This document shows, piece by piece, positions 2,619 to 25,632 of a DNA stretch of 64,000 bases; the first letter of the stretch is position 1; the number at the start of each line of letters is the position of its first letter. The notes under the pieces were generated by a model that had not been told where the DNA came from, did no database searches, and saw only the letters and a program-made list of their open reading frames with translations. Origin of the DNA: Bacteroidota bacterium (GTDB taxonomy: Bacteria; Bacteroidota; Bacteroidia; Palsa-948); the NCBI GenBank assembly GCA_016213435.1, contig JACRAL010000004.1, positions 1,286 to 65,285 on the forward strand. Reading direction: 5' to 3'. The translations under genes and the position numbers were made by a program.

Positions 2619-3521
2619 TTACTTCATGTGCACGGTATAAACATTGCTGTTGATGGTAACTGTGGCCTCATCATCACACGCTCCGTTATTGGGAGAAGAA
2701 AAATCAACGTGGCGTGTTGGTTTGGTTCCGGGAGTAAAATCAAATGTTCCGGAAGTAAACCAATGACAGCGCGAAGAGGGCATTCCCGAAGTACCTAAAA
2801 TTCCATCTACAAGAGGACTTGTGATATTCATATTAAATGGAGTTCCATTTGCGGATGTACCGCTGGCGGAACCGCTGATGGAAAAAACTCTAGGCATAGA
2901 TAGCAACCCGGTAAGCATTTCGCGTGTGCGATTTGCAGTCCATTTTATTGTTTTGCCGTCTGTTTTGATAATTCTTCCATCCACATTGATGCTCCAGTTC
3001 ATGTGTCCGGCAGCGTTGAGCCCATTGTTCGTGACTGAACGAGTGCCGATAATTTGATTCATCGAATTTTGGTCCGGACCTACAAAATAGGTATTGTCAG
3101 GCATAGTTGTAATGTCAATAGTTGAACCCACATCCCAATAACCAAGACTATGATTACCGGTTGTATAGGAAATAAATATTTTCCCTTTGCGGTAACGCCC
3201 ATCGCGACACAAACAACTTGTGCTGCCAAAATCAACGGTAATTACCCCTGATGAATCTGCCTGTTTAACAATAGTAATTGTAGCGCAAGAAGCCGTGAGA
3301 AGACCGTCAGGTTCAGCCATTTTATAATTGGTTGTATTTCCTTTAGATGCTTCATCAGAAATCTGGTGCATATCATTAAAAGATTGCTCTGCAAGCGAAT
3401 TATCTGAAACACCGCTGGTATCGGTGTCATTTGGTGCTTTCGGTTTACGACATCCTATGAATGACAGAACTGCTGCCATTAACAGTATAGTAGCATTTAA
3501 AATCAATAGCTTGGTTTTCAT
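2619..3521 (-). CDS. Hypothetical lipoprotein (beta-rich, Bacteroidota type)
   Basis: Long ORF. The likely start MKTKLL at 3521 is followed by a hydrophobic stretch and lipobox FIGC. Contains a C.C.DG..RKGKI motif. Confidence 0.75.
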   Translation of the reverse strand: MKTKLLILNATILLMAAVLSFIGCRKPKAPNDTDTSGVSDNSLAEQSFNDMHQISDEASKGNTTNYKMAEPDGLLTASCATITIVKQADSSGVITVDFGSTSCLCRDGRYRKGKIFISYTTGNHSLGYWDVGSTIDITTMPDNTYFVGPDQNSMNQIIGTRSVTNNGLNAAGHMNWSINVDGRIIKTDGKTIKWTANRTREMLTGLLSMPRVFSISGSASGTSANGTPFNMNITSPLVDGILGTSGMPSSRCHWFTSGTFDFTPGTKPTRHVDFSSPNNGACDDEATVTINSNVYTVHMK

Positions 3522-18938: not shown

Positions 18939-21281
18939 ATGAACGCACATAACCAAGAAGATAAAAAAGAAAATGGATTTTTATCGCGAGAAAGTCGGGA
19001 ACAGAAACTTCCAGCAAAGAAAGTAAAGAAATATTTACTCATTTTTTGGACGTTGGTGTTTGCTCCGTTCCTGCTGATTTTTCTTGTCGTGTACATGGTT
19101 TCGATGGGATGGTTCGGAGAACTTCCCAATGTGGCCGAATTGCAAAATCCTAAACTTAACCTTGCTACAGAAATTATTTCCTCTGATGGAAAAATTCTTG
19201 GAAAATATTATACGGAGAACCGTGTGAACGTAAAATACAAGGAACTTAGCCCTTTTCTTGTAAACGGATTGATTGCTACAGAAGATGCACGCTTTTACGA
19301 TCACTCAGGGGTTGATCTCAGAGGATTGTTCCGTGTTCTTTTCAGGACGGTGATTGGCGGAGACCAAAGTGGTGGCGGTGGAAGTACACTTTCCCAGCAA
19401 TTGGCAAAAATGCTTTTCCCTCGTGAAAAAAATCAATCCAAGATCCGTTTAGCGATGCGCAAAATAAAAGAGTGGATCATTGCCGCGCGGCTGGAGCAAC
19501 AATATACCAAAGACGAGATTCTTACCATGTATTTAAACAAGTTTGATTTTGTCAATCTTGCCGTGGGAATAAAATCTGCTTCCAAAATTTATTTCAACAC
19601 CACTCCCGATTCTCTCAAGACAGAACAAGCCGCCATGCTGGTGGGTATGTGCAAAAATCCTTCGCTGTTTAATCCGCATCTTCAGAGAAGAATTGATACA
19701 ACGCTGCATCGCAGAAATGTGGTGATGAACCAGATGATGAAGTATGGATTTTTATCGCAAAAAAATTATGATTCGCTGAAGACACTTCCGCTCGGAATAA
19801 ATTTTCAGCAGGAAGACCACAATCTCGGGCTGGCTCCCTACCTGCGCGAATACCTGCGCGATGATTTTATGAAAAAGTGGTGCGATGAAAATCCTAAACC
19901 CGATGGAACAAAATATAATATATACCGTGATGGATTAAAAATTTATACCACCATTGATTCCCGCTTGCAGCGCTATGCCGAGCAGGCAATGGAGCGGCAC
20001 ATGAAAGAAATTCAGAAAGATTTTTCAAAAGAATGCAAGCAGAAGAAAAATGCTCCGTTCGACTGGAATGTAACCAAGGAAGAAATTAATTCCATCATGA
20101 CCTCTTCCATACACCGCTCTGACAGATACCGTATGTTGAAAATGCAGGGAATGAGCGAAGCGGATATCAAAAAGAATTTCAGCACGCCTGTACCGATGAC
20201 CGTATTTTCCTGGAACGGAGAATTTGATACCATTATGTCCCCGATGGATTCTATCCGTTATTACAAGCAATACCTGCAGACAGGATTTATGAGCATGGAT
20301 CCGCACACCGGTTTTATAAAATCCTGGGTAGGAGGCATCAATTACAAGCATTTCAAGTATGATCATGTAAATAGAAGAGCAACGCGGCAGGTAGGTTCAA
20401 CCTTTAAGCCGTTTGTGTATGCACTTGCAATTATGGAAGGATGGTCGCCCTGCCAGAAAATTCCGAATGTTCCCGTTACTTTTGAACTTCCCAATCAACC
20501 CCCTTGGACTCCGCAGAATTCTTCGGAAGAAGAGTACAACGGAAAAATGGTAACGATGAAATTTGCACTCGCGCTTTCCATCAACTGGGTGACAGCATAT
20601 ATCATGAAGCAGTTTGGACCTGAACCTGTTGTACAACTGGCAAGACGTTTGGGAATTACCGCACCGCTTGAGCCCGTACCATCGCTTTGTCTCGGCTCTG
20701 CAGATATTTCCGTATTTGAAATGACAGGGGCTATGAGTACCTTCGCTAATAAAGGGACACGCATTGAACCTATATTCGTTACACGCATCGAAGATAAAAA
20801 TGGACGTGTACTTGCGGAGTTCTCTCCAAAGTCAGAAGAAGTGATGGACGAAGAAAAAGCATATGTGTCACTCTCGCTGATGCAAGGAGTGGTGCAGAAC
20901 GGAACAGGACAGCGTCTTCATTCTAGGTATAAATTAATGCAGCCCATGGCGGGAAAAACCGGTACGACACAAAATCACTCTGACGGCTGGTACATGGGCA
21001 TCACACCCGATCTGGTATCCGGAATTTGGGTAGGAGGAGAAGACCGCAGCATTCACTTTTCAGGATTGAAAGAAGGACAGGGTGCGGTAATGGCACTTCC
21101 GATATTCGCTTACTATATGCAGAAAGTGTATGCAGATAAAAAATTAAATTTTTATCAGGGAGATTTTGAAAAACCAACAAAGAAAATTTCTGTGGAGATG
21201 GACTGCGATAAATACAACAAAGAAATGGAATCAGGGAAAGGCGGAGAAAGTGACAAAGGATATGATGACGAAAAGTTCTAA
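18939..21281 (+). CDS. mrcA: Penicillin-binding protein 1A (transglycosylase + transpeptidase)
   Basis: ATEDARF, GGSTLSQQLAK, RKIKE, STFK (SxxK), SIN (SxN) and KTGT motifs. Confidence 0.94.
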   Translation: MNAHNQEDKKENGFLSRESREQKLPAKKVKKYLLIFWTLVFAPFLLIFLVVYMVSMGWFGELPNVAELQNPKLNLATEIISSDGKILGKYYTENRVNVKYKELSPFLVNGLIATEDARFYDHSGVDLRGLFRVLFRTVIGGDQSGGGGSTLSQQLAKMLFPREKNQSKIRLAMRKIKEWIIAARLEQQYTKDEILTMYLNKFDFVNLAVGIKSASKIYFNTTPDSLKTEQAAMLVGMCKNPSLFNPHLQRRIDTTLHRRNVVMNQMMKYGFLSQKNYDSLKTLPLGINFQQEDHNLGLAPYLREYLRDDFMKKWCDENPKPDGTKYNIYRDGLKIYTTIDSRLQRYAEQAMERHMKEIQKDFSKECKQKKNAPFDWNVTKEEINSIMTSSIHRSDRYRMLKMQGMSEADIKKNFSTPVPMTVFSWNGEFDTIMSPMDSIRYYKQYLQTGFMSMDPHTGFIKSWVGGINYKHFKYDHVNRRATRQVGSTFKPFVYALAIMEGWSPCQKIPNVPVTFELPNQPPWTPQNSSEEEYNGKMVTMKFALALSINWVTAYIMKQFGPEPVVQLARRLGITAPLEPVPSLCLGSADISVFEMTGAMSTFANKGTRIEPIFVTRIEDKNGRVLAEFSPKSEEVMDEEKAYVSLSLMQGVVQNGTGQRLHSRYKLMQPMAGKTGTTQNHSDGWYMGITPDLVSGIWVGGEDRSIHFSGLKEGQGAVMALPIFAYYMQKVYADKKLNFYQGDFEKPTKKISVEMDCDKYNKEMESGKGGESDKGYDDEKF

Positions 21282-21294
21282 AGAAGAATTATTT

Positions 21295-21378
21295 AATTTG
21301 AGAATTTGAAGATTTGAAAAGGGGAAATAAAATATGTAATTTCATTTGAAAATTTTCAAATTACCACATCTTCAAATT
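21295..21378. repeat. Inverted octamer arrays (intergenic)
   Basis: AATTTGAG AATTTGAA GATTTGAA ... TTTTCAAA TTACCACA TCTTCAAA TT. Confidence 0.6.
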
Positions 21379-21387
21379 TGATTTTAT

Positions 21388-22095
21388 ATGAATAAAACAG
21401 TTAAAAACGCTGAAGAAGCTGTTCGGGATGTAAAAGATGGAATGACCATCGCACTCGGAGGGTTTGGCTTATGCGGAATTCCTGAGAACTGTATTAACGC
21501 GCTTGTAAAAAAAAATGTGCGAGAACTTACTTGCATTTCAAATAATGCGGGTGTTGACGATTTCGGATTGGGATTGCTTTTGCAGGGAAAGCAGATCAAA
21601 AAAATGATTTCTTCTTATGTGGGAGAAAATGCAGAGTTCGAGCGGCAAATGCTTAGCGGAGAATTAGAAGTGGATCTGATTCCGCAGGGAACGCTCGCCA
21701 CTCGTTTAATGGCTACAGGATATGGAATGCCTGTCATTTATACTCCTGCAGGCGTAGGAACGGAAGTGGCTGAAGGAAAAGAAGTGAGAAGATTTAAATT
21801 TAACGGAGTGGAGAAAGACTATTTGATGGAATACGCCTTTGAACCTGATTTCGCTATTGTGAAAGCATGGAAGGGAGATACGCAGGGCAATCTTGTTTTT
21901 CGATTAACAACAAGGAATTTTAGTCCGCTGGTTGCCATGTCCGGAAAAATTACAGTGGCGGAAGTGGAGCATCTGGTTCAACCGGGAGAATTGGACCCGG
22001 ATCATATCCATGTTCCCGGGATTTATGTTCATCGCATCTTTCAGGGAGAAAAATATATTAAGAGAATTGAGCAGCGTACGGTGAGAGAAAAATAG
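21388..22095 (+). CDS. scoA: 3-oxoacid CoA-transferase subunit A
   Basis: [23 protein letters not shown] and HVPGIYV motifs. Confidence 0.95.
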
Positions 22096-22156
22096 TGATG
22101 GAAGTTGCGTTTAAAAAGAAGTGAGCACTCAGAATAGAGATAAAACAATAATCATC

Positions 22157-22231
22157 CGTCATTGCAAGGGAGAAACGACCGAAGCAATCTGCCTTTAAAA
22201 ATGAGATTGCTTCGCTACGCTCGCAATGACG
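22157..22231. repeat. Family-B palindromic doublet, copy 1 (between scoA and scoB)
   Basis: CGTCATTGCAAGGGAGAAACGACCGAAGCAATCT..GAGATTGCTTCGCTACGCTCGCAATGACG. Confidence 0.92.
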
Positions 22232-22244
22232 AAACATAAAAATT

Positions 22245-22904
22245 ATGTTAGATAAAGAAGGAATTGCAAAACGCATTGCGAAAGAAATTAAGGATGGCTA
22301 CTACGTAAATCTTGGAATCGGGATTCCCACTCTGTGCGCCAATTATGTTCCGAAAGGAATGGATATTGTGCTTCAATCGGAAAACGGAATTCTGGGAATG
22401 GGTCCTTTTCCCTATGAAGGAGAGGAAGATTCTGATCTTATCAATGCGGGAAAGCAAACTGTAACACTTTTAAATGGTGCATCTATTTTTGATTCCGCCA
22501 TGAGTTTTGGGATGATCCGCGCACAAAAAGTAGATCTTACAATTCTCGGAGCGATGGAAGTAAGCGAGAACGGTGATATTGCCAACTGGAAAATTCCCGG
22601 CAAGATGGTAAAAGGAATGGGAGGTGCGATGGATCTGGTTGCTTCTGCAAAAAATATTATTGTGGCGATGCAGCAAGTGAATAAGGCGGGAGAATCCAAA
22701 CTGCTTCCTAAGTGCACACTTCCGATTACCGGAGTGCGCTGCATCAAAAAAATAGTAACCGAACTTGGAGTGTACGATGTTCTTCCGGAGGGAGGATTCA
22801 AATTATTGGAACGAGCTCCCGGAATTTCTGTTGAGCATATCCGAAAATCTACTGCCGGAAAATTAATTGTGGAAGGAGATGTGCCGGAGATGATTCTTGA
22901 TTAA
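22245..22904 (+). CDS. scoB: 3-oxoacid CoA-transferase subunit B
   Basis: NLGIGIPT, SENG (active-site Glu) and GMGGAMDL motifs. Confidence 0.95.
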   Translation: MLDKEGIAKRIAKEIKDGYYVNLGIGIPTLCANYVPKGMDIVLQSENGILGMGPFPYEGEEDSDLINAGKQTVTLLNGASIFDSAMSFGMIRAQKVDLTILGAMEVSENGDIANWKIPGKMVKGMGGAMDLVASAKNIIVAMQQVNKAGESKLLPKCTLPITGVRCIKKIVTELGVYDVLPEGGFKLLERAPGISVEHIRKSTAGKLIVEGDVPEMILD

Positions 22905-22940
22905 ACTGTCATTAGAATGATGAGCAGTAGTAAATAATAA

Positions 22941-23030
22941 TTCGTCATTGCGAGGGAGTTAATGACCGAAGCAATCCTATAATTCGGAGTCATAATTGAG
23001 AGATTGCTTCGCTTTGCTCGCAATGACGAA
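22941..23030. repeat. Family-B palindromic doublet, copy 2
   Basis: TTCGTCATTGCGAG...GAAGCAATC..GATTGCTTCG..CTCGCAATGACGAA, with a perfect 14-bp terminal inverted repeat. Confidence 0.93.
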
Positions 23031-23048
23031 GAGATAATATAACCGGAA

Positions 23049-23084
23049 TCGTCATTGCGAGGGAGTCAGCGACCAAAGCAATCT
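23049..23084 (+). repeat. Family-B left arm directly before the GIY-YIG start codon
   Basis: TCGTCATTGCGAGGGAGTCAGCGACCAAAGCAATCT, ending 5 nt before the ATG at 23090. Confidence 0.92.
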
Positions 23085-23089
23085 TATAA

Positions 23090-23389
23090 ATGAAACGGGT
23101 AGGATTCGCATATATAATGACAAATAAAAATAATACTACGCTTTATACGGGAGTAACATCGGATTTAAGAATTCGCACATATAAGCATAAGAATAATTTT
23201 TTCCCGGATTCATTCTCTGCAAGATATAATTTGCATAAACTTGTATACTACGAAGGATTTCATCATATTGAAGAGGCAATAGCAAGGGAAAAACAAATAA
23301 AAGCAGGGTCACGAAAGAAAAAGGAAGCATTGATAAATTCGATTAATCCTGAATGGAAGGATTTATATGATGAAGTTTTAGAATGGTGA
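23090..23389 (+). CDS. Stand-alone small GIY-YIG nuclease family protein
   Basis: AYIMTN...LYTGVTSDL..R...HK...FSARY...KLVYYE...AIAREKQIK..SR..K..LI...NP.W.DL. The Tyr/Arg/His/Glu catalytic residues appear intact. Confidence 0.93.
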   Translation: MKRVGFAYIMTNKNNTTLYTGVTSDLRIRTYKHKNNFFPDSFSARYNLHKLVYYEGFHHIEEAIAREKQIKAGSRKKKEALINSINPEWKDLYDEVLEW

Positions 23390-23404
23390 AGTTATTGTCG
23401 GAGA

Positions 23405-23490
23405 CGTGATTGCGAGGGAGTCTTCGACAGAAGTAATCTTTTTATGAGATTGCTTCGTCCCGATCCGAGCATCGGTTCTCGCAATGACGA
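23405..23490. repeat. Family-B palindromic doublet after GIY-YIG, with a mini-hairpin nested in its right arm
   Basis: CGTGATTGCGAGGGAGTCTTCGACAGAAGTAATCT..GAGATTGCTTCG[TCCCGATCCGAGCATCGGTT]CTCGCAATGACGA. Confidence 0.9.
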
Positions 23491-23496
23491 ATAACT

Positions 23497-24204
23497 ATGA
23501 AAACACTATCAATAATAATCCCCGCATACAACGAAGAGAAAACAATACATCTCATTCTTGACAAAGTGCTTGCTGTAAAACTGATGGGAGAGATGCAGAA
23601 AGAAATTGTCATTGTGAATGATTGCTCAAAGGATGCTACAAAAGAAGCCATTGAAAAATATATTGATTCTCATCCCGAACAGAAGTTTATCTTTTTCTCT
23701 CAACCGGTTAATAAAGGAAAGGGCGCAGCCATTCACAAAGGAATTGAAATTGCTTCCGGAGATTTTATTGTCATACAGGATGCTGATCTGGAATACAATC
23801 CGGAAGAGTATAACATTCTTCTTAAACCAATCCTTGATGGCTTTGCCGATGTGGTGTATGGTTCCCGTTTCATGGGAGGAAATCCGCACCGCATTTTATT
23901 TTACTGGCACTCATTGGGAAATAAATTTCTTACGGCACTGTCCAATATGTTCACCAACCTGAACCTCACGGATATGGAAACCTGCTACAAACTTTTCCGC
24001 GCGGACATTATCAAAAATATTTCTTTGAAAGAAAAACGTTTTGGTTTTGAGCCGGAAGTAACGGCAAAAATTGCACGTATTCCGAACACACGGATTTACG
24101 AAGTGGGAATTTCCTATTACGGAAGAACTTACGCTGAAGGGAAAAAAATAAACTGGCAGGATGGGGTAAGAGGACTATGGTGCATATTGAAATATAATTT
24201 TTAG
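23497..24204 (+). CDS. GT2 glycosyltransferase (polyprenol-phosphate/DPM1-like)
   Basis: [38 protein letters not shown] and FGFEPE motifs. Confidence 0.92.
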
Positions 24205-24207
24205 TTT

Positions 24208-25632
24208 ATGAACAAAAAGGTAATAATTATAGGAGCAGGACCTGCAGGGCTCAGTTGTGCCTATAAACTTGCTGAAGCAGGATGTCAGGTTGAAGTTTTT
24301 GAAGCCAGTCCGCATGTTGGCGGTCTTGCGAGAAGTTTTGATCTATGGGGACAGCGTGTCGATTGCGGACCTCACCGTTTTTTTTCACAAGATAAAATTG
24401 TTAATGACTTTTTTAAAGAAGTGGTTGGCAATGATTACACGATGATCGACCGACTCACCCGAATTTATTACAACAACAAATATTTCTTTTATCCGCTTAA
24501 ACCTTTAAATGCATTTGCTAATCTCGGACCATTCACCGTGCTGCAGGTGCTTGTGAGTTATTTTTTTCAGCGACTTACTCCAATAAAAGACCCAAAAACC
24601 TTTGAGGAGTGGATAGTTAATCGTTTTGGAAAAAAACTTTTTGGAATATTTTTTAAGAACTATACGGAAAAACTCTGGGGAATTCCTTGTTCAAAGATCG
24701 ATGCTGACTGGGCGGCACAACGGATTAAAAAACTTTCGTTATGGGAAGCCGTAAAAAATGCCTTTTTCGGAGATAAGGGGAAGAAACATAAAACTCTGGT
24801 TGACCAGTTCGCTTATCCTAAAGGAGGAACGGGCATGATCTATGAGAAGATGAAAAATTTTGTGAAATCAAAAGGAGGAAAAGTTCACCAGAATGCTGCC
24901 GTGAAAAAAATTCTTAAAAATGAAAACGGTAATGTAAACGGAATTGAATTATCAAACGGAGAAAAGGTCTTTTCAGAATTTGTTGTTTCAACCATGCCGC
25001 TGACATTGATGGTGAAAGGACTTGATAATGTGCCGAAAGAAGTGATTGCAGCTTGTGATAAGTTATATTATCGTAATACCATCCTTGTTTATCTTGAAAT
25101 TGACAGTACAACTCTTTTTCCTGATAACTGGATATATGTTCATGATCCAAAAGTGCAGCACGGGCGTATCACTAATTTCCGCAATTGGGGCATTTCGCTT
25201 TATGGTGATAAAAAAACAACCATTCTTTGTTTGGAATATTGGTGCTTTGAAAAGGATGAAGTCTGGACAATTGACGATAAGCATCTTTCGGAACTTGCAA
25301 AAACAGAAGTGAAGAAAATAAAACTTGTTCCGCAGGATGCAGTTATTCTTAATTCATTTGTCATGCGTCTTTCGAGATGTTATCCGGTATATGAAATCGG
25401 TTATGAAAAACATCTTGAAATAATACAGGAATATGTGAACAGCATTCCGAATATATTAGCCATTGGAAGATACGGTGCATTCAAGTATAACAATCAGGAT
25501 CACTCCATTTTAATGGGACTTCTTGCTGCACGCGAAATCATTACGGGTAAAAAGCAAAATCTCTGGGATATAAATACCGATACCGAGTACCAGGAAACTC
25601 AGGAAGTTTTGGAAACGGGATTGGATAGATAA
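24208..25632 (+). CDS. FAD-dependent oxidoreductase (HemY/UDP-galactopyranose-mutase-like superfamily)
   Basis: IIGAGPAG, GG..RS, DCGPHRF, YTEKLWG, YPKGG.G and GRYG.FKYNNQDH motifs. Confidence 0.85.
   Translation: MNKKVIIIGAGPAGLSCAYKLAEAGCQVEVFEASPHVGGLARSFDLWGQRVDCGPHRFFSQDKIVNDFFKEVVGNDYTMIDRLTRIYYNNKYFFYPLKPLNAFANLGPFTVLQVLVSYFFQRLTPIKDPKTFEEWIVNRFGKKLFGIFFKNYTEKLWGIPCSKIDADWAAQRIKKLSLWEAVKNAFFGDKGKKHKTLVDQFAYPKGGTGMIYEKMKNFVKSKGGKVHQNAAVKKILKNENGNVNGIELSNGEKVFSEFVVSTMPLTLMVKGLDNVPKEVIAACDKLYYRNTILVYLEIDSTTLFPDNWIYVHDPKVQHGRITNFRNWGISLYGDKKTTILCLEYWCFEKDEVWTIDDKHLSELAKTEVKKIKLVPQDAVILNSFVMRLSRCYPVYEIGYEKHLEIIQEYVNSIPNILAIGRYGAFKYNNQDHSILMGLLAAREIITGKKQNLWDINTDTEYQETQEVLETGLDR

What the first reader, a model, noticed from the sequence alone, without database searches (positions are those of the whole stretch)
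22157..23490. GIY-YIG mini-nuclease embedded in its own palindromic repeat family: candidate RAYT/REPIN-like system with a non-HUH enzyme
Seen: seven arms of one repeat family lie within 1.35 kb, and I saw no full copy elsewhere in the 64 kb. The arms are GTCATTGCGAGGGAG..GACCGAAGCAATCT and GAGATTGCTTCG..CTCGCAATGAC. The layout is an L-R doublet between scoA and scoB, an L-R doublet, a lone L arm ending 5 nt before the ATG of a 99-aa GIY-YIG gene, then an L-R doublet 16 nt after its stop. Each arm is a hairpin (ATTGC..GCAAT) and L and R are mutually inverted. Established: this is the architecture of REP/REPIN clusters around RAYT (TnpA-REP) genes, and from memory the sequence resembles Rickettsia palindromic elements. 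Inference: the nuclease may recognise or mobilise these repeats, making gene plus repeats a minimal selfish unit inserted between scoB and the GT2 operon. No transposase is present in the window.
Basis: partly seen in the sequence, partly recalled or inferred. Interest (0 to 1): 0.82.

Follow-up and report, generated by a model that had tools for sequence, protein, structure and literature searches.

The report
Ssn nuclease gene with hairpin repeats
A tiny DNA-cutting enzyme gene sits among copies of the DNA hairpin repeat that it most likely recognises; this pairing was first published in 2025, so it is a new example of a known system, not a new kind.

Summary
Seven arms of one repeat family lie at 22157-23489 around a 99-aa GIY-YIG gene (23090-23389). 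No other copy with at most 1 mismatch occurs in the 64 kb.

The family is genome-wide: 82 arms in the 3.7-Mb genome against 2 in a reversed control. All 23 two-arm clusters are inverted doublets.

The pairing was published as the Ssn/SRM system (Chenal et al. 2025, PMC11893778). There a 94-aa GIY-YIG enzyme cuts single-stranded DNA beside its own CGTC-tagged hairpin. That paper also draws the RAYT/REP analogy.

The window's protein is 42% identical to the NTS-flanked Neisseria gonorrhoeae gene (tblastn E 1e-14).

Of 80 homologues at 58-79% identity, 61 have the same ATTGC hairpin within 200 bp, a 38-fold enrichment over the outer flanks.

Specific to this case:
- The published SRM search pattern matches 0 of the 7 arms.
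- Three doublets are precisely absent from a congener.
- The gene is absent between scoB and GT2 in another congener.

Whether the nuclease spreads the repeats is not shown. This scan reported the same system before on other DNA. Verdict: new member of a known kind, modest interest.

The parts
22157..22189 (+). Arm L1 (CGTC tag, ATTGC/GCAAT basal stem), left half of the doublet between scoA and scoB
22205..22231 (-). Arm R1, short type (GAGCGTAGCGAA interior), right half of the doublet; tag faces outward
   Evidence: the doublet 22155-22235 folds at -19.7 kcal/mol, z -5.4
22943..22976 (+). Arm L2, left half of the second doublet, after the scoB stop
23002..23028 (-). Arm R2, right half of the second doublet; 14-nt perfect inverted repeat with L2
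   Evidence: pair I5; the doublet folds at -25.2 kcal/mol, z -7.1
23050..23083 (+). Arm L3, solo arm just before the nuclease ATG (6 nt lie between its last base and the ATG)
23090..23389 (+). ssn-like gene: 99-aa single-domain GIY-YIG nuclease
   Evidence: PF01541 E 6.9e-13. AF2 model pLDDT 94.2, best PDB matches UPF0213, Slx1 and UvrC N-terminal domain. 42% identity to the NTS-flanked N. gonorrhoeae frame. Y8, Y19, G21, R29, H33, E67 and N86 conserved.
23405..23438 (+). Arm L4, degenerate copy (GTG tag, GTAAT in place of GCAAT)
   Evidence: (73% identity to L2)
23448..23489 (-). Arm R3 with an internal hairpin. Its outer 13 nt are a perfect inverted repeat of the start of L3. It ends 7 nt before the GT2 ATG (23497).
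   Evidence: (pairs I3, I4)

Best explanation
The 99-aa protein is a member of the Ssn family of small single-domain GIY-YIG nucleases. The repeats are its cognate Ssn-related hairpin motifs, in a divergent form common in Bacteroidota.

Form of the repeat: a CGTC tag, a 5-bp ATTGC/GCAAT basal stem, a purine-rich GAG/GAA internal loop, and a variable distal hairpin.

By analogy with the tested Neisseria and Wolbachia enzymes, the protein would bind the tagged hairpin in single-stranded DNA. It would cut that strand a few bases 5' of the tag, and would not cut duplex DNA or RNA.

Gene plus flanking arms form an IS-like unit inserted between scoB and the GT2 gene. The gene-less inverted doublets scattered through the genome are its REPIN/MITE-like relatives.

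What is shown here:
- homology to the NTS-flanked Neisseria gene;
- association of this gene clade with this repeat across species;
- compensatory changes in the basal stem;
- presence/absence of the gene and of doublets at orthologous sites.

What is inferred: the biochemical activity, its specificity, and any role in spreading the repeats.
For: Protein:
- GIY-YIG domain and confident GIY-YIG fold.
- Catalytic-type residues conserved in 17 homologues.
- tblastn E 1e-14 and pairwise 42% identity over 91 residues (E 4e-24) to the open frame in N. gonorrhoeae. In the 1.67-kb locus around that frame the published SRM pattern finds 7 canonical NTS copies, and one begins right after its stop.

Repeat family in this genome:
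- 82 arms against 2 in the reversed-genome control.
- 47 of 82 lie outside long open frames, which cover 87% of the genome.
- All 23 two-arm clusters are '+-', with tags outward. The only three-arm cluster adjoins the gene.

Association across species:
- 61 of 80 homologues from other species (58-79% identity) have an ATTGC hairpin within 200 bp, and 40 of 80 on both sides.
- Density is 159 hairpins in 31.8 kb near the gene against 23 in 172.6 kb beyond 300 bp.
- The ATTGC type is the dominant flanking hairpin in 60 of 86 homologues at 55% identity or more, and in 0 of 20 below that. More distant homologues carry other stems of the same design.
- On the protein tree the label changes 20 times against 34.7 in shuffles (minimum 27 of 500).

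Covariation, using anchors outside the stem:
- 178 of 295 matches are perfectly complementary, against 0 of 31 in the control.
- 27 of the 95 matches with a non-ATTGC stem are doubly compensated.

Across 41 related genomes:
- 6 of the 7 with a homologue at 56% identity or more have at least 8 arms.
- 24 of the 34 without have none.

Insertion evidence:
- G008 has scoB-ssn-GT2. G003 has scoB-GT2 without the gene.
- 3 of 7 doublets examined are precisely absent in G002. The breaks lie 0-10 nt from the CGTC tags and there is no target duplication.

Published biochemistry for homologues: PMC11893778, sections read.
Against: - The published degenerate SRM pattern matches 0 of 7 arms. It finds 6 sites in the genome against 9 in the reversed control. 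By the paper's own repeat criterion this locus would count as SRM-less.
- Single arms are weak hairpins by nearest-neighbour energies.
- cd10448 membership could not be checked because no CDD tool was available.
- The homology anchor is the N. gonorrhoeae frame, not the assayed N. meningitidis protein. That frame has no listed ATG, GTG or TTG start upstream of codon 20 in this record.
- G008 (100% complete) keeps the orthologous gene (78% identity) but has only about 2 arms, both with a GTA tag.
- G003 (78% complete) has 49 arms and no homologue above 40% identity.
- 19 of 80 homologues have no perfect ATTGC hairpin within 200 bp.
- The orientation of the nearest arm is mixed: 28 + and 21 - upstream, 31 - and 21 + downstream.
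- No activity was measured here.
Confidence: 0.8

Rival explanations
1. Active selfish system. The single-copy nuclease mobilises the gene-less doublets in trans, as RAYT is thought to do for REPINs. The family would then be currently expanding through nuclease-initiated copying. This goes beyond the best explanation, which leaves the role open.
For: - The doublets are a discrete unit: 23 of 23 have tags outward.
- 3 of 7 doublets examined are precisely absent in a congener, with breaks at the tags.
- The scoA-scoB spacer holds a doublet in G000 and one in the opposite arm order in G005. It holds none in G007 (45 nt) or G012 (5 nt).
- There is one gene and 82 arms.
- G009 has 5 gene matches and 256 arms, many in near-identical doublets.
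Against: - GIY-YIG enzymes hydrolyse DNA and form no covalent intermediate, so they cannot paste DNA unaided (general knowledge of the superfamily).
- No target-site duplication was seen at 3 empty sites.
- G008 has the gene and almost no arms. G003 has 49 arms and no close gene.
- Copies within G000 differ widely in their interiors, which argues against a recent burst.
- Absence in a congener can equally be a precise deletion between the inverted ends.
Confidence: 0.3
2. The repeats are host elements acting as RNA or DNA signals (terminators, mRNA stabilisers, protein-binding sites). The GIY-YIG gene is a free-standing homing-type gene that merely prefers them as landing sites, with no enzyme-substrate relation.
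For: - The arms sit at gene ends and between operon genes.
- The doublets would form strong hairpins in a transcript.
- Repeats occur in genomes where no close gene was found (G003, G004, G005).
Against: - The repeat type follows the protein clade across 106 homologues.
- Four assayed homologues cut ssDNA next to their own flanking repeat and do not act on RNA (PMC11893778).
- No Rfam family matches at E up to 1.
- The 99-aa protein has no separate DNA-binding domain of the kind homing endonucleases use.
Confidence: 0.08
3. A RAYT-like Y1 (HUH) transposase elsewhere in the genome moves these repeats, and the GIY-YIG gene is a bystander.
For: The genome has 5 matches to PF01797 (Y1_Tnp).
Against: - None of the 5 has an arm within 900 bp. 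The nearest are at 945 and 1054 bp. The GIY-YIG gene has one within 20 nt and 8 tag-like matches (up to 2 mismatches) within 1.5 kb, seven of them the arms.
- The arms carry a CGTC tag, not the GTAG tag of RAYT-associated REPs (PMC3733652).
- That paper found no Y1 gene flanked by CGTC repeats in any species it examined.
Confidence: 0.03

Closest known systems
Ssn nucleases with NTS/SRM hairpin repeats (SsnA of Neisseria meningitidis; Chenal et al. 2025, Nat Commun 16:2388, PMC11893778)
   Same: - Single-domain GIY-YIG protein of about 95 aa.
- The gene is bracketed by copies of a dispersed, oriented hairpin repeat that begins CGTCATT and ends AATC.
- One gene and tens to hundreds of repeats.
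- 42% identity to the NTS-flanked Neisseria gene.
   Different: - The repeat has a 5-bp ATTGC/GCAAT basal stem, a GAG/GAA internal loop and a variable distal hairpin. The NTS has a continuous 9-bp ATTCCCGCG stem.
- The published SRM search pattern matches 0 of 7 arms.
- The arms mostly occur as inverted doublets of two arm types.
- The main text of the paper never mentions Bacteroidota. Its supplementary tables could not be read.
- Activity is untested here.
REP/REPIN elements with RAYT (TnpA-REP) genes, 'REPtrons' (PMC3116915, PMC2817692; seen in a search listing only)
   Same: - Single-copy gene flanked by its own short palindromic repeats.
- Genome-wide intergenic copies.
- Inverted doublets as the apparent unit.
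   Different: - The enzyme is a hydrolytic GIY-YIG nuclease, not an HUH/Y1 transposase.
- The tag is CGTC, not GTAG.
- The genome's own Y1 genes are not flanked by these arms.
CGTC-tagged palindromic repeats, including Rickettsia RPEs (Di Nocera et al. 2013, PMC3733652; abstract and passages read)
   Same: - Short stem-loops with an unpaired CGTC at one end.
- Found in Bacteroidetes among 5 phyla.
- Mostly extragenic.
- Reported to 'lack a dedicated transposase'.
   Different: - That paper looked only at transposase genes and did not report the GIY-YIG link.
- The Ssn paper does not cite it (0 occurrences of 'Nocera' or 'CGTC-tagged').
- That the two literatures describe one superfamily is my synthesis.
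UPF0213 proteins (BH0048, PDB 1zg2; EF2693, 1ywl)
   Same: - Small stand-alone GIY-YIG fold.
- Best structural match: Foldseek E 2.2e-4, TM 0.55.
   Different: - Only distant in sequence (E 1.5e-3).
- A second group of Bacteroidota homologues is much closer to UPF0213 (E 7.5e-15) and carries a different repeat.
Slx1 structure-specific endonuclease (PDB 4xlg, 6seh, 7cq3)
   Same: GIY-YIG core that acts on branched or hairpin DNA; structural matches at ranks 2-12.
   Different: Slx1 has a RING domain and an Slx4 partner. Sequence identity is 14-19%.

Membership tests
Ssn family (cd10448 GIY-YIG) with SRM repeats | Single-domain GIY-YIG protein of about 90-100 residues | tested here: met
   99 aa; PF01541 covers residues 6-78. 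One compact domain in the AF2 model, pLDDT 94.2. GIY-YIG structures are the top matches.
Ssn family (cd10448 GIY-YIG) with SRM repeats | Conserved GIY and YIG tyrosines, Arg and metal-binding Glu. The paper's mutants of the tyrosines and of a cofactor site lost cutting. | tested here: met
   Y19, G21, R29, H33 and E67 are invariant, and Y8, R66 and N86 nearly invariant, in 17 homologues. The assignment of catalytic roles is recalled from the GIY-YIG literature.
Ssn family (cd10448 GIY-YIG) with SRM repeats | Homology to Neisseria SsnA (the paper's working criterion is tblastn E < 1e-10) | tested here: met
   tblastn E 1e-14, 41.8% identity, against the frame in N. gonorrhoeae NZ_CP119142 in a 7.3-Gb database. 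Pairwise E 4e-24. NTS copies flank that frame. Caveat: the search ran in the reverse direction, and against the gonococcal orthologue rather than the assayed meningococcal protein.
Ssn family (cd10448 GIY-YIG) with SRM repeats | Assignment to CDD model cd10448 (GIY-YIG_unchar_3) | not testable with these tools
   No CDD library was on hand. NCBIfam gave only a sub-threshold hit (TIGR01453, 15.7 bits against a cut-off of 56).
Ssn family (cd10448 GIY-YIG) with SRM repeats | Gene flanked on both sides by oriented hairpin repeats of 20-50 nt that are dispersed in the genome | tested here: met
   Arms lie 6 nt upstream and 15 nt downstream of the gene. The genome has 82 arms against 2 in the control. 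40 of 80 homologues are flanked on both sides.
Ssn family (cd10448 GIY-YIG) with SRM repeats | Repeats fit the published degenerate SRM search pattern | tested here: not met
   0 of 7 arms match. The genome has 6 hits against 9 in the reversed control. The same regular expression finds 7 NTS copies in the 1.67-kb gonococcal locus. The pattern is a search device, not the definition of the family, so I still file this under Ssn.
Ssn family (cd10448 GIY-YIG) with SRM repeats | Site-specific cutting of single-stranded DNA 5' of the hairpin; no action on duplex DNA or RNA | not testable with these tools
   Needs purified protein and oligonucleotide substrates.
RAYT/REP (REPtron) | HUH/Y1 tyrosine transposase encoded between the repeats | tested here: not met
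   The gene is GIY-YIG. The 5 Y1_Tnp matches in the genome have no arm within 900 bp.
RAYT/REP (REPtron) | GTAG tag at one end of the repeat | tested here: not met
   The arms start with CGTC.
RAYT/REP (REPtron) | Inverted doublets (REPINs) as the dispersed unit, with a single-copy gene | tested here: met
   23 of 23 two-arm clusters are inverted with tags outward. There is one close gene copy. This is a likeness in behaviour, not membership.
CGTC-tagged REPs (Di Nocera 2013) | Short stem-loop with an unpaired CGTC at one end, in many mostly extragenic copies | tested here: met
   CGTC precedes the stem in all but the degenerate L4 arm (CGTG tag), and in most of the 23 doublets printed. 47 of 82 arms lie outside long open frames, 25 fully inside and 10 partly inside.
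GIY-YIG homing endonucleases (I-TevI type) | Nuclease domain joined to a separate DNA-binding domain; gene inside an intron or free-standing in a phage | tested here: not met
   99 aa with one domain. TIGR01453 scores 15.7 bits against a cut-off of 56. The gene lies in a chromosomal intergenic position.

The most novel reading that the evidence does not exclude
The ATTGC doublets are non-autonomous mobile elements. They would be copied after a single-strand cut by the one Ssn nuclease in the genome, with host replication or repair doing the joining.

This would be a hydrolytic-nuclease counterpart of RAYT/REPIN. It would also supply the 'missing enzyme' for the whole CGTC-tagged repeat superfamily (Rickettsia RPE, Neisseria dRS3/NTS, and these Bacteroidota repeats), which Di Nocera et al. 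left without a dedicated enzyme in 2013.
Probability: 0.25. Interest if true: 0.7.

Novelty: new member of a known kind. Interest (0 to 1): 0.3.

Why it matters
The locus adds a well-documented Bacteroidota case to the Ssn/hairpin-repeat system.

Three practical points follow:
1. The published SRM search pattern misses this whole repeat type. Published figures for how many Ssn genes have cognate repeats may therefore be underestimates.
2. The repeat has a short conserved base and internal loop with a free distal part. This suggests which nucleotides the enzyme reads, which is useful if Ssn enzymes are developed as ssDNA tools.
3. Clean presence/absence of doublets and of the gene between congeners gives material to test whether these nucleases spread their repeats. 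The 2025 paper left that question open.

These repeats also break metagenome assemblies at the arms and create false C-terminal tails on predicted proteins.

Tried and rejected
- Rfam scan of 21000-24500 at E up to 1: no family.
- NCBIfam: only a sub-threshold group I intron endonuclease hit.
- PDB by sequence: only UPF0213 at E 1.5e-3, and no solved Ssn structure in the 2026 copy.
- Sequencing runs: one holder, probably the source sample, kept as contigs. No RNA holder was listed.
- Laying that run:
  - Contigs end at the arms.
  - Summed word depth is 4,464 to 70,896 in four arm bins against about 15 elsewhere. That depth sums contigs of other organisms.
  - The four joints have short sides (20-29 nt) and fit other copies of the repeat. 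I take no evidence for excision from it.
- Multi-state stem labels on the protein tree: 25 changes against 28-29 in the first 10 of 200 shuffles (the only ones printed), uninformative because most non-ATTGC labels are singletons. The binary label was used instead.
- An ATTCC-type pattern with a CGTC tag in G000, G006, G009 and G012: 1-4 hits each, too few to test a second cognate pair within one genome.
- Empty-site search:
  - Five regions holding 7 doublets were searched in 5 congeners.
  - Only 3 doublets gave contiguous flanks in G002.
  - The other 4 were unresolved: flanks on different contigs, unrelated spacers of 188 nt and 1.7 kb, or inside one long match that I did not dissect.
  - Three further regions (L130, L134, L135) were fetched but not searched.
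- Literature:
  - 'GIY-YIG' with REP, RAYT and palindromic, with REPIN, and with repeat, intergenic, hairpin and COG2827 gave nothing on this pairing.
  - 'SsnA' with GIY-YIG and ssDNA from 2024 on gave only the Chenal paper.
  - The repeat core as text gave only primer-like hits in the 15 papers listed of 452.
- The first alignment handed to the search for related loci was too diverse. A narrower one worked.
- Chance or assembly artefact was rejected and on the recurrence in 61 of 80 other species.
Full report
**1. Observation**

- L1 22157-22189 (+) and R1 22205-22231 (-) lie between scoA (21388-22095) and scoB (22245-22904).
- L2 22943-22976 (+), R2 23002-23028 (-) and L3 23050-23083 (+) lie after scoB.
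- The 99-aa GIY-YIG gene is at 23090-23389.
- L4 23405-23438 (+, degenerate) and R3 23448-23489 (-) follow it. R3 ends 7 nt before the ATG of the GT2 gene.

The 12-mer GTCATTGCGAGG with up to 2 mismatches occurs 10 times against 3.48 expected (0 of 100 shuffles reach 10). All 7 hits with at most 1 mismatch are the arms. Pfam confirms GIY-YIG (E 6.9e-13), two CoA-transferase subunits and a GT2.

**2. The family is genome-wide and built as doublets**

The window lies in a 3.70-Mb, 216-contig genome.
- A stem-agnostic scan (GTC, 5 nt, then the reverse complement within 50 nt) finds ATTGC 82 times against 2 in the reversed genome.
- A stricter two-box pattern gives 52.
- The 82 arms form 57 clusters: 33 singles, 23 pairs and one triple.
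- All 23 pairs are '+-', with the CGTC tags pointing outward. The triple is the one just upstream of the gene.
- Including the degenerate L4, the gene locus has the densest group of arms in the genome.
- 47 of 82 arms lie outside long open frames, which cover 87% of the genome.
- The printed doublets share GTCATTGCGAG..GAAGCAATCTC ends and differ freely inside. Some interiors are perfect small hairpins.

**3. Structure**

As single-stranded DNA the individual arms fold weakly: -2.3 to -7.2 kcal/mol, with z from +0.37 to -1.04. The doublets fold as one long hairpin at -25.2 (z -7.1) and -19.7 kcal/mol (z -5.4). 'Each arm is a hairpin' is therefore not supported by energy alone.

Covariation does support it. 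I used anchors that do not include the stem (CGTC-N5-GA...GAA-N5-Y) on 111 loci.
- 178 of 295 matches are perfectly complementary, against 0 of 31 in the reversed control.
- 27 of the 95 matches whose left stem is not ATTGC are doubly compensated: ATCGC/GCGAT 11, ATTAC/GTAAT 5, ACTGC/GCAGT 3, ATCCC/GGGAT 3, and others.

Pairing between the two arms of a doublet would not require the two halves of one arm to match each other. Intra-arm pairing therefore appears to be selected.

**4. What it is**

I read its Results part 1, the family section, the Discussion and the SRM Methods. The paper reports:
- SsnA of N. meningitidis is a 94-aa single-domain GIY-YIG protein (CDD cd10448).
- It binds the NTS hairpin CGTCATTCCCGCGMAVGCGGGAATCYRG in single-stranded DNA and cuts just upstream. 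It does not act on duplex DNA, RNA or the complementary strand.
- Homologues from three other species cut near their own repeats.
- 71% of homologues have an 'SRM' nearby and 42% on both sides.
- The NTS-ssnA-NTS layout is 'identical to' an insertion sequence, and the paper draws the RAYT/REP/BIME parallel.

**5. Membership**

Sequence:
- tblastn of the window's protein against PLSDB hit two 2.17-Mb N. gonorrhoeae records at 41.8% identity, E 1e-14.
- In the 1.67-kb locus around the hit the published SRM pattern finds 7 canonical NTS copies, and one begins right after the stop of the frame.
- The pairwise comparison gives 42% identity over 91 residues, E 4e-24.
- In that record the frame has no listed start upstream of codon 20. 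I used it only as a homology anchor.
- A homologue from the same genus as the window (L010, genome G006) is 63% identical to the gonococcal frame and carries NTS-like flanks.

Structure and residues:
- The AF2 model (pLDDT 94.2) is one GIY-YIG domain. Its best PDB matches are UPF0213, Slx1, HIGLE and the UvrC N-terminal domain.
- Y19, G21, R29, H33 and E67 are invariant, and Y8 and N86 nearly so, in 17 homologues.

Limits:
- cd10448 itself could not be tested.
- The published degenerate SRM pattern finds 0 of the 7 arms. It finds 6 sites in the genome against 9 in the control, while finding 7 in the gonococcal locus.
- The repeat is therefore a divergent SRM. It shares the CGTCATT start and the AATC end, but has a 5-bp stem, a GAG/GAA internal loop and a variable insert.

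**6. Association across species**

- Among 41 related genomes, 21 have a homologue and 16 have the ATTGC pattern.
- Of the 7 genomes with a homologue at 56% identity or more, 6 have at least 8 arms: G009 256, G012 90, G000 39, G029 38, G020 20, G007 8.
- Of the other 34 genomes, 24 have no arm and 10 have 1-40.
The best 80 (58-79% identity, nearly all Bacteroidota) were kept.
- 61 of these 80 have a perfect ATTGC hairpin within 200 bp, and 40 of 80 on both sides.
- Density is 159 hairpins in 31.8 kb near the gene against 23 in 172.6 kb beyond 300 bp, about 38-fold.
- Over 106 homologues, ATTGC is the dominant flanking hairpin in 60 of 86 at 55% identity or more, and in 0 of 20 below that.
- On the protein tree the label changes 20 times against 34.7 in shuffles (minimum 27 of 500). 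Relatives share labels, so this overstates independence.
- More distant homologues carry other stems of the same design: ATTCC, ATTTC, ATGCT and others.

**7. Insertion and loss**

At the gene:
- G008 has scoA-scoB-ssn-GT2, as here.
- G003 has scoB, 159 nt, then GT2, with no such gene.

In the scoA-scoB spacer:
- 45 nt with no arm in G007.
- 5 nt in G012.
- A doublet in G000.
- A doublet with the two arm types in the opposite order in G005.
- A PF05635 gene cassette in G002 and on a second G003 contig.

For doublets elsewhere in the genome:
- I searched 5 regions holding 7 doublets in 5 congeners.
- For 3 of 7 the flanks are contiguous in G002: C80:16438, C94:21501 and C165:9159.
- The alignments show the doublet as a clean 90-100-nt block absent from G002.
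- The breaks lie 0-10 nt from the CGTC tags, and there is no target duplication.
- The other 4 were unresolved.

This shows gain or loss of discrete units. It does not show direction or agent.

**8. Evidence against a simple 'gene drives repeats' picture**

- G008 (100% complete) keeps the orthologous gene at 78% identity, but has only about 2 real arms, both with a GTA tag.
- G003 (78% complete) has 49 arms and no homologue above 40% identity.
- 19 of 80 homologues lack a perfect ATTGC hairpin nearby.
- The orientation of the nearest arm is mixed.
- GIY-YIG enzymes only hydrolyse DNA, so any copying must rely on host functions (general knowledge of the superfamily).

**9. Rivals**

- RAYT: 5 Y1_Tnp matches exist in the genome, but none has an arm within 900 bp, and the tag is CGTC rather than GTAG.
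- RNA element: no Rfam match, and the assayed Ssn enzymes ignore RNA.
- Chance: excluded.

**10. Literature**

- Di Nocera et al. 2013 (PMC3733652; abstract and passages) defined CGTC-tagged repeats. They found them in Bacteroidetes and four other phyla, included Rickettsia RPEs, and found no dedicated transposase.
- The Ssn paper's text contains neither 'Nocera', 'CGTC-tagged', 'RPE' nor 'Bacteroid'.
- That SRMs and CGTC-REPs are one superfamily is my synthesis.
- No other paper on Ssn was found, and none prints this repeat core as a bacterial repeat among the 15 listed of 452.
- Supplementary tables of the Ssn paper were closed. They may already cover Bacteroidota homologues.

**11. Verdict**

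It is a new member of a system published in 2025, and this scan has met that system repeatedly on other DNA.

Specific to this case:
- a repeat type that the published search pattern misses;
- the strict doublet architecture;
- clean orthologous presence/absence.

Whether the nuclease spreads its repeats remains open.

Noticed in passing
G000 contig C29:12464-16135 (outside the window): A 1223-aa open frame that looks like a type I restriction R subunit (my reading of the translation; no family search was run). It holds an in-frame insertion of a different small GIY-YIG domain (tblastn E 0.007 to the window's protein). The insertion is bracketed by CCTGTCTGCG..GCACAGGCAG hairpins that are translated as part of the frame.
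   Followed up: partly
window 21295-21378; L032:1062-1463 (G002); L041 (G003:C1): The scoA-scoB spacer of two congeners holds a PF05635 (23S rRNA-intervening sequence protein) gene (E 1.5e-20) between TTTGAAAATTTGAAGATT-like inverted repeats. The window has an ORF-less 26-nt inverted repeat of the same kind upstream of scoA (pair I1). This may be a second small cassette family.
   Followed up: partly
L014, L017, L018, L027, L029 (genomes G013, G036, G003, G008, G029): A second group of small GIY-YIG homologues is much closer to UPF0213 (L017 against PDB 1zg2, E 7.5e-15) than to the window's protein. It is flanked by a different tagged repeat (GTC..GAGCTTGTCGAA..), in tandem arrays of 4-5 units in L014. 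The repeat association may reach beyond the clade that the Ssn paper defined.
   Followed up: partly
L037 (G008:C20) and G008:C35:28373-28406: The orthologous ssn gene of G008 has arms with a GTA tag in place of GTC. That 100%-complete genome has only about 2 such arms.
   Followed up: partly
L129:1865-1939 and 3181-3266 (G000:C107): Two other dispersed repeats of about 75-85 nt have many copies in the congeners. In G002 only 13 nt separate the flanks of the block at 3182-3266 (coordinates; no alignment made).
   Followed up: no
L018, L014, L024, L029: Several homologues' open frames run on into the downstream repeat. This gives C-terminal tails such as ..LRQAQGD.. that are translated repeat, a likely source of spurious tails in protein databases.
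   Followed up: no
PLSDB records NZ_CP119142.1 and NZ_CP119140.1: Two N. gonorrhoeae records of 2.17 Mb are filed as plasmids. Their size is that of a chromosome.
   Followed up: no
window 22108-22309 and 22916-23117: In the groundwater metagenome that holds this DNA, summed contig depth over the arm bins is 4,464 to 70,896 against about 15 for the rest. Contigs end at the arms. The repeat seems to be shared by very many contigs of that community.
   Followed up: partly
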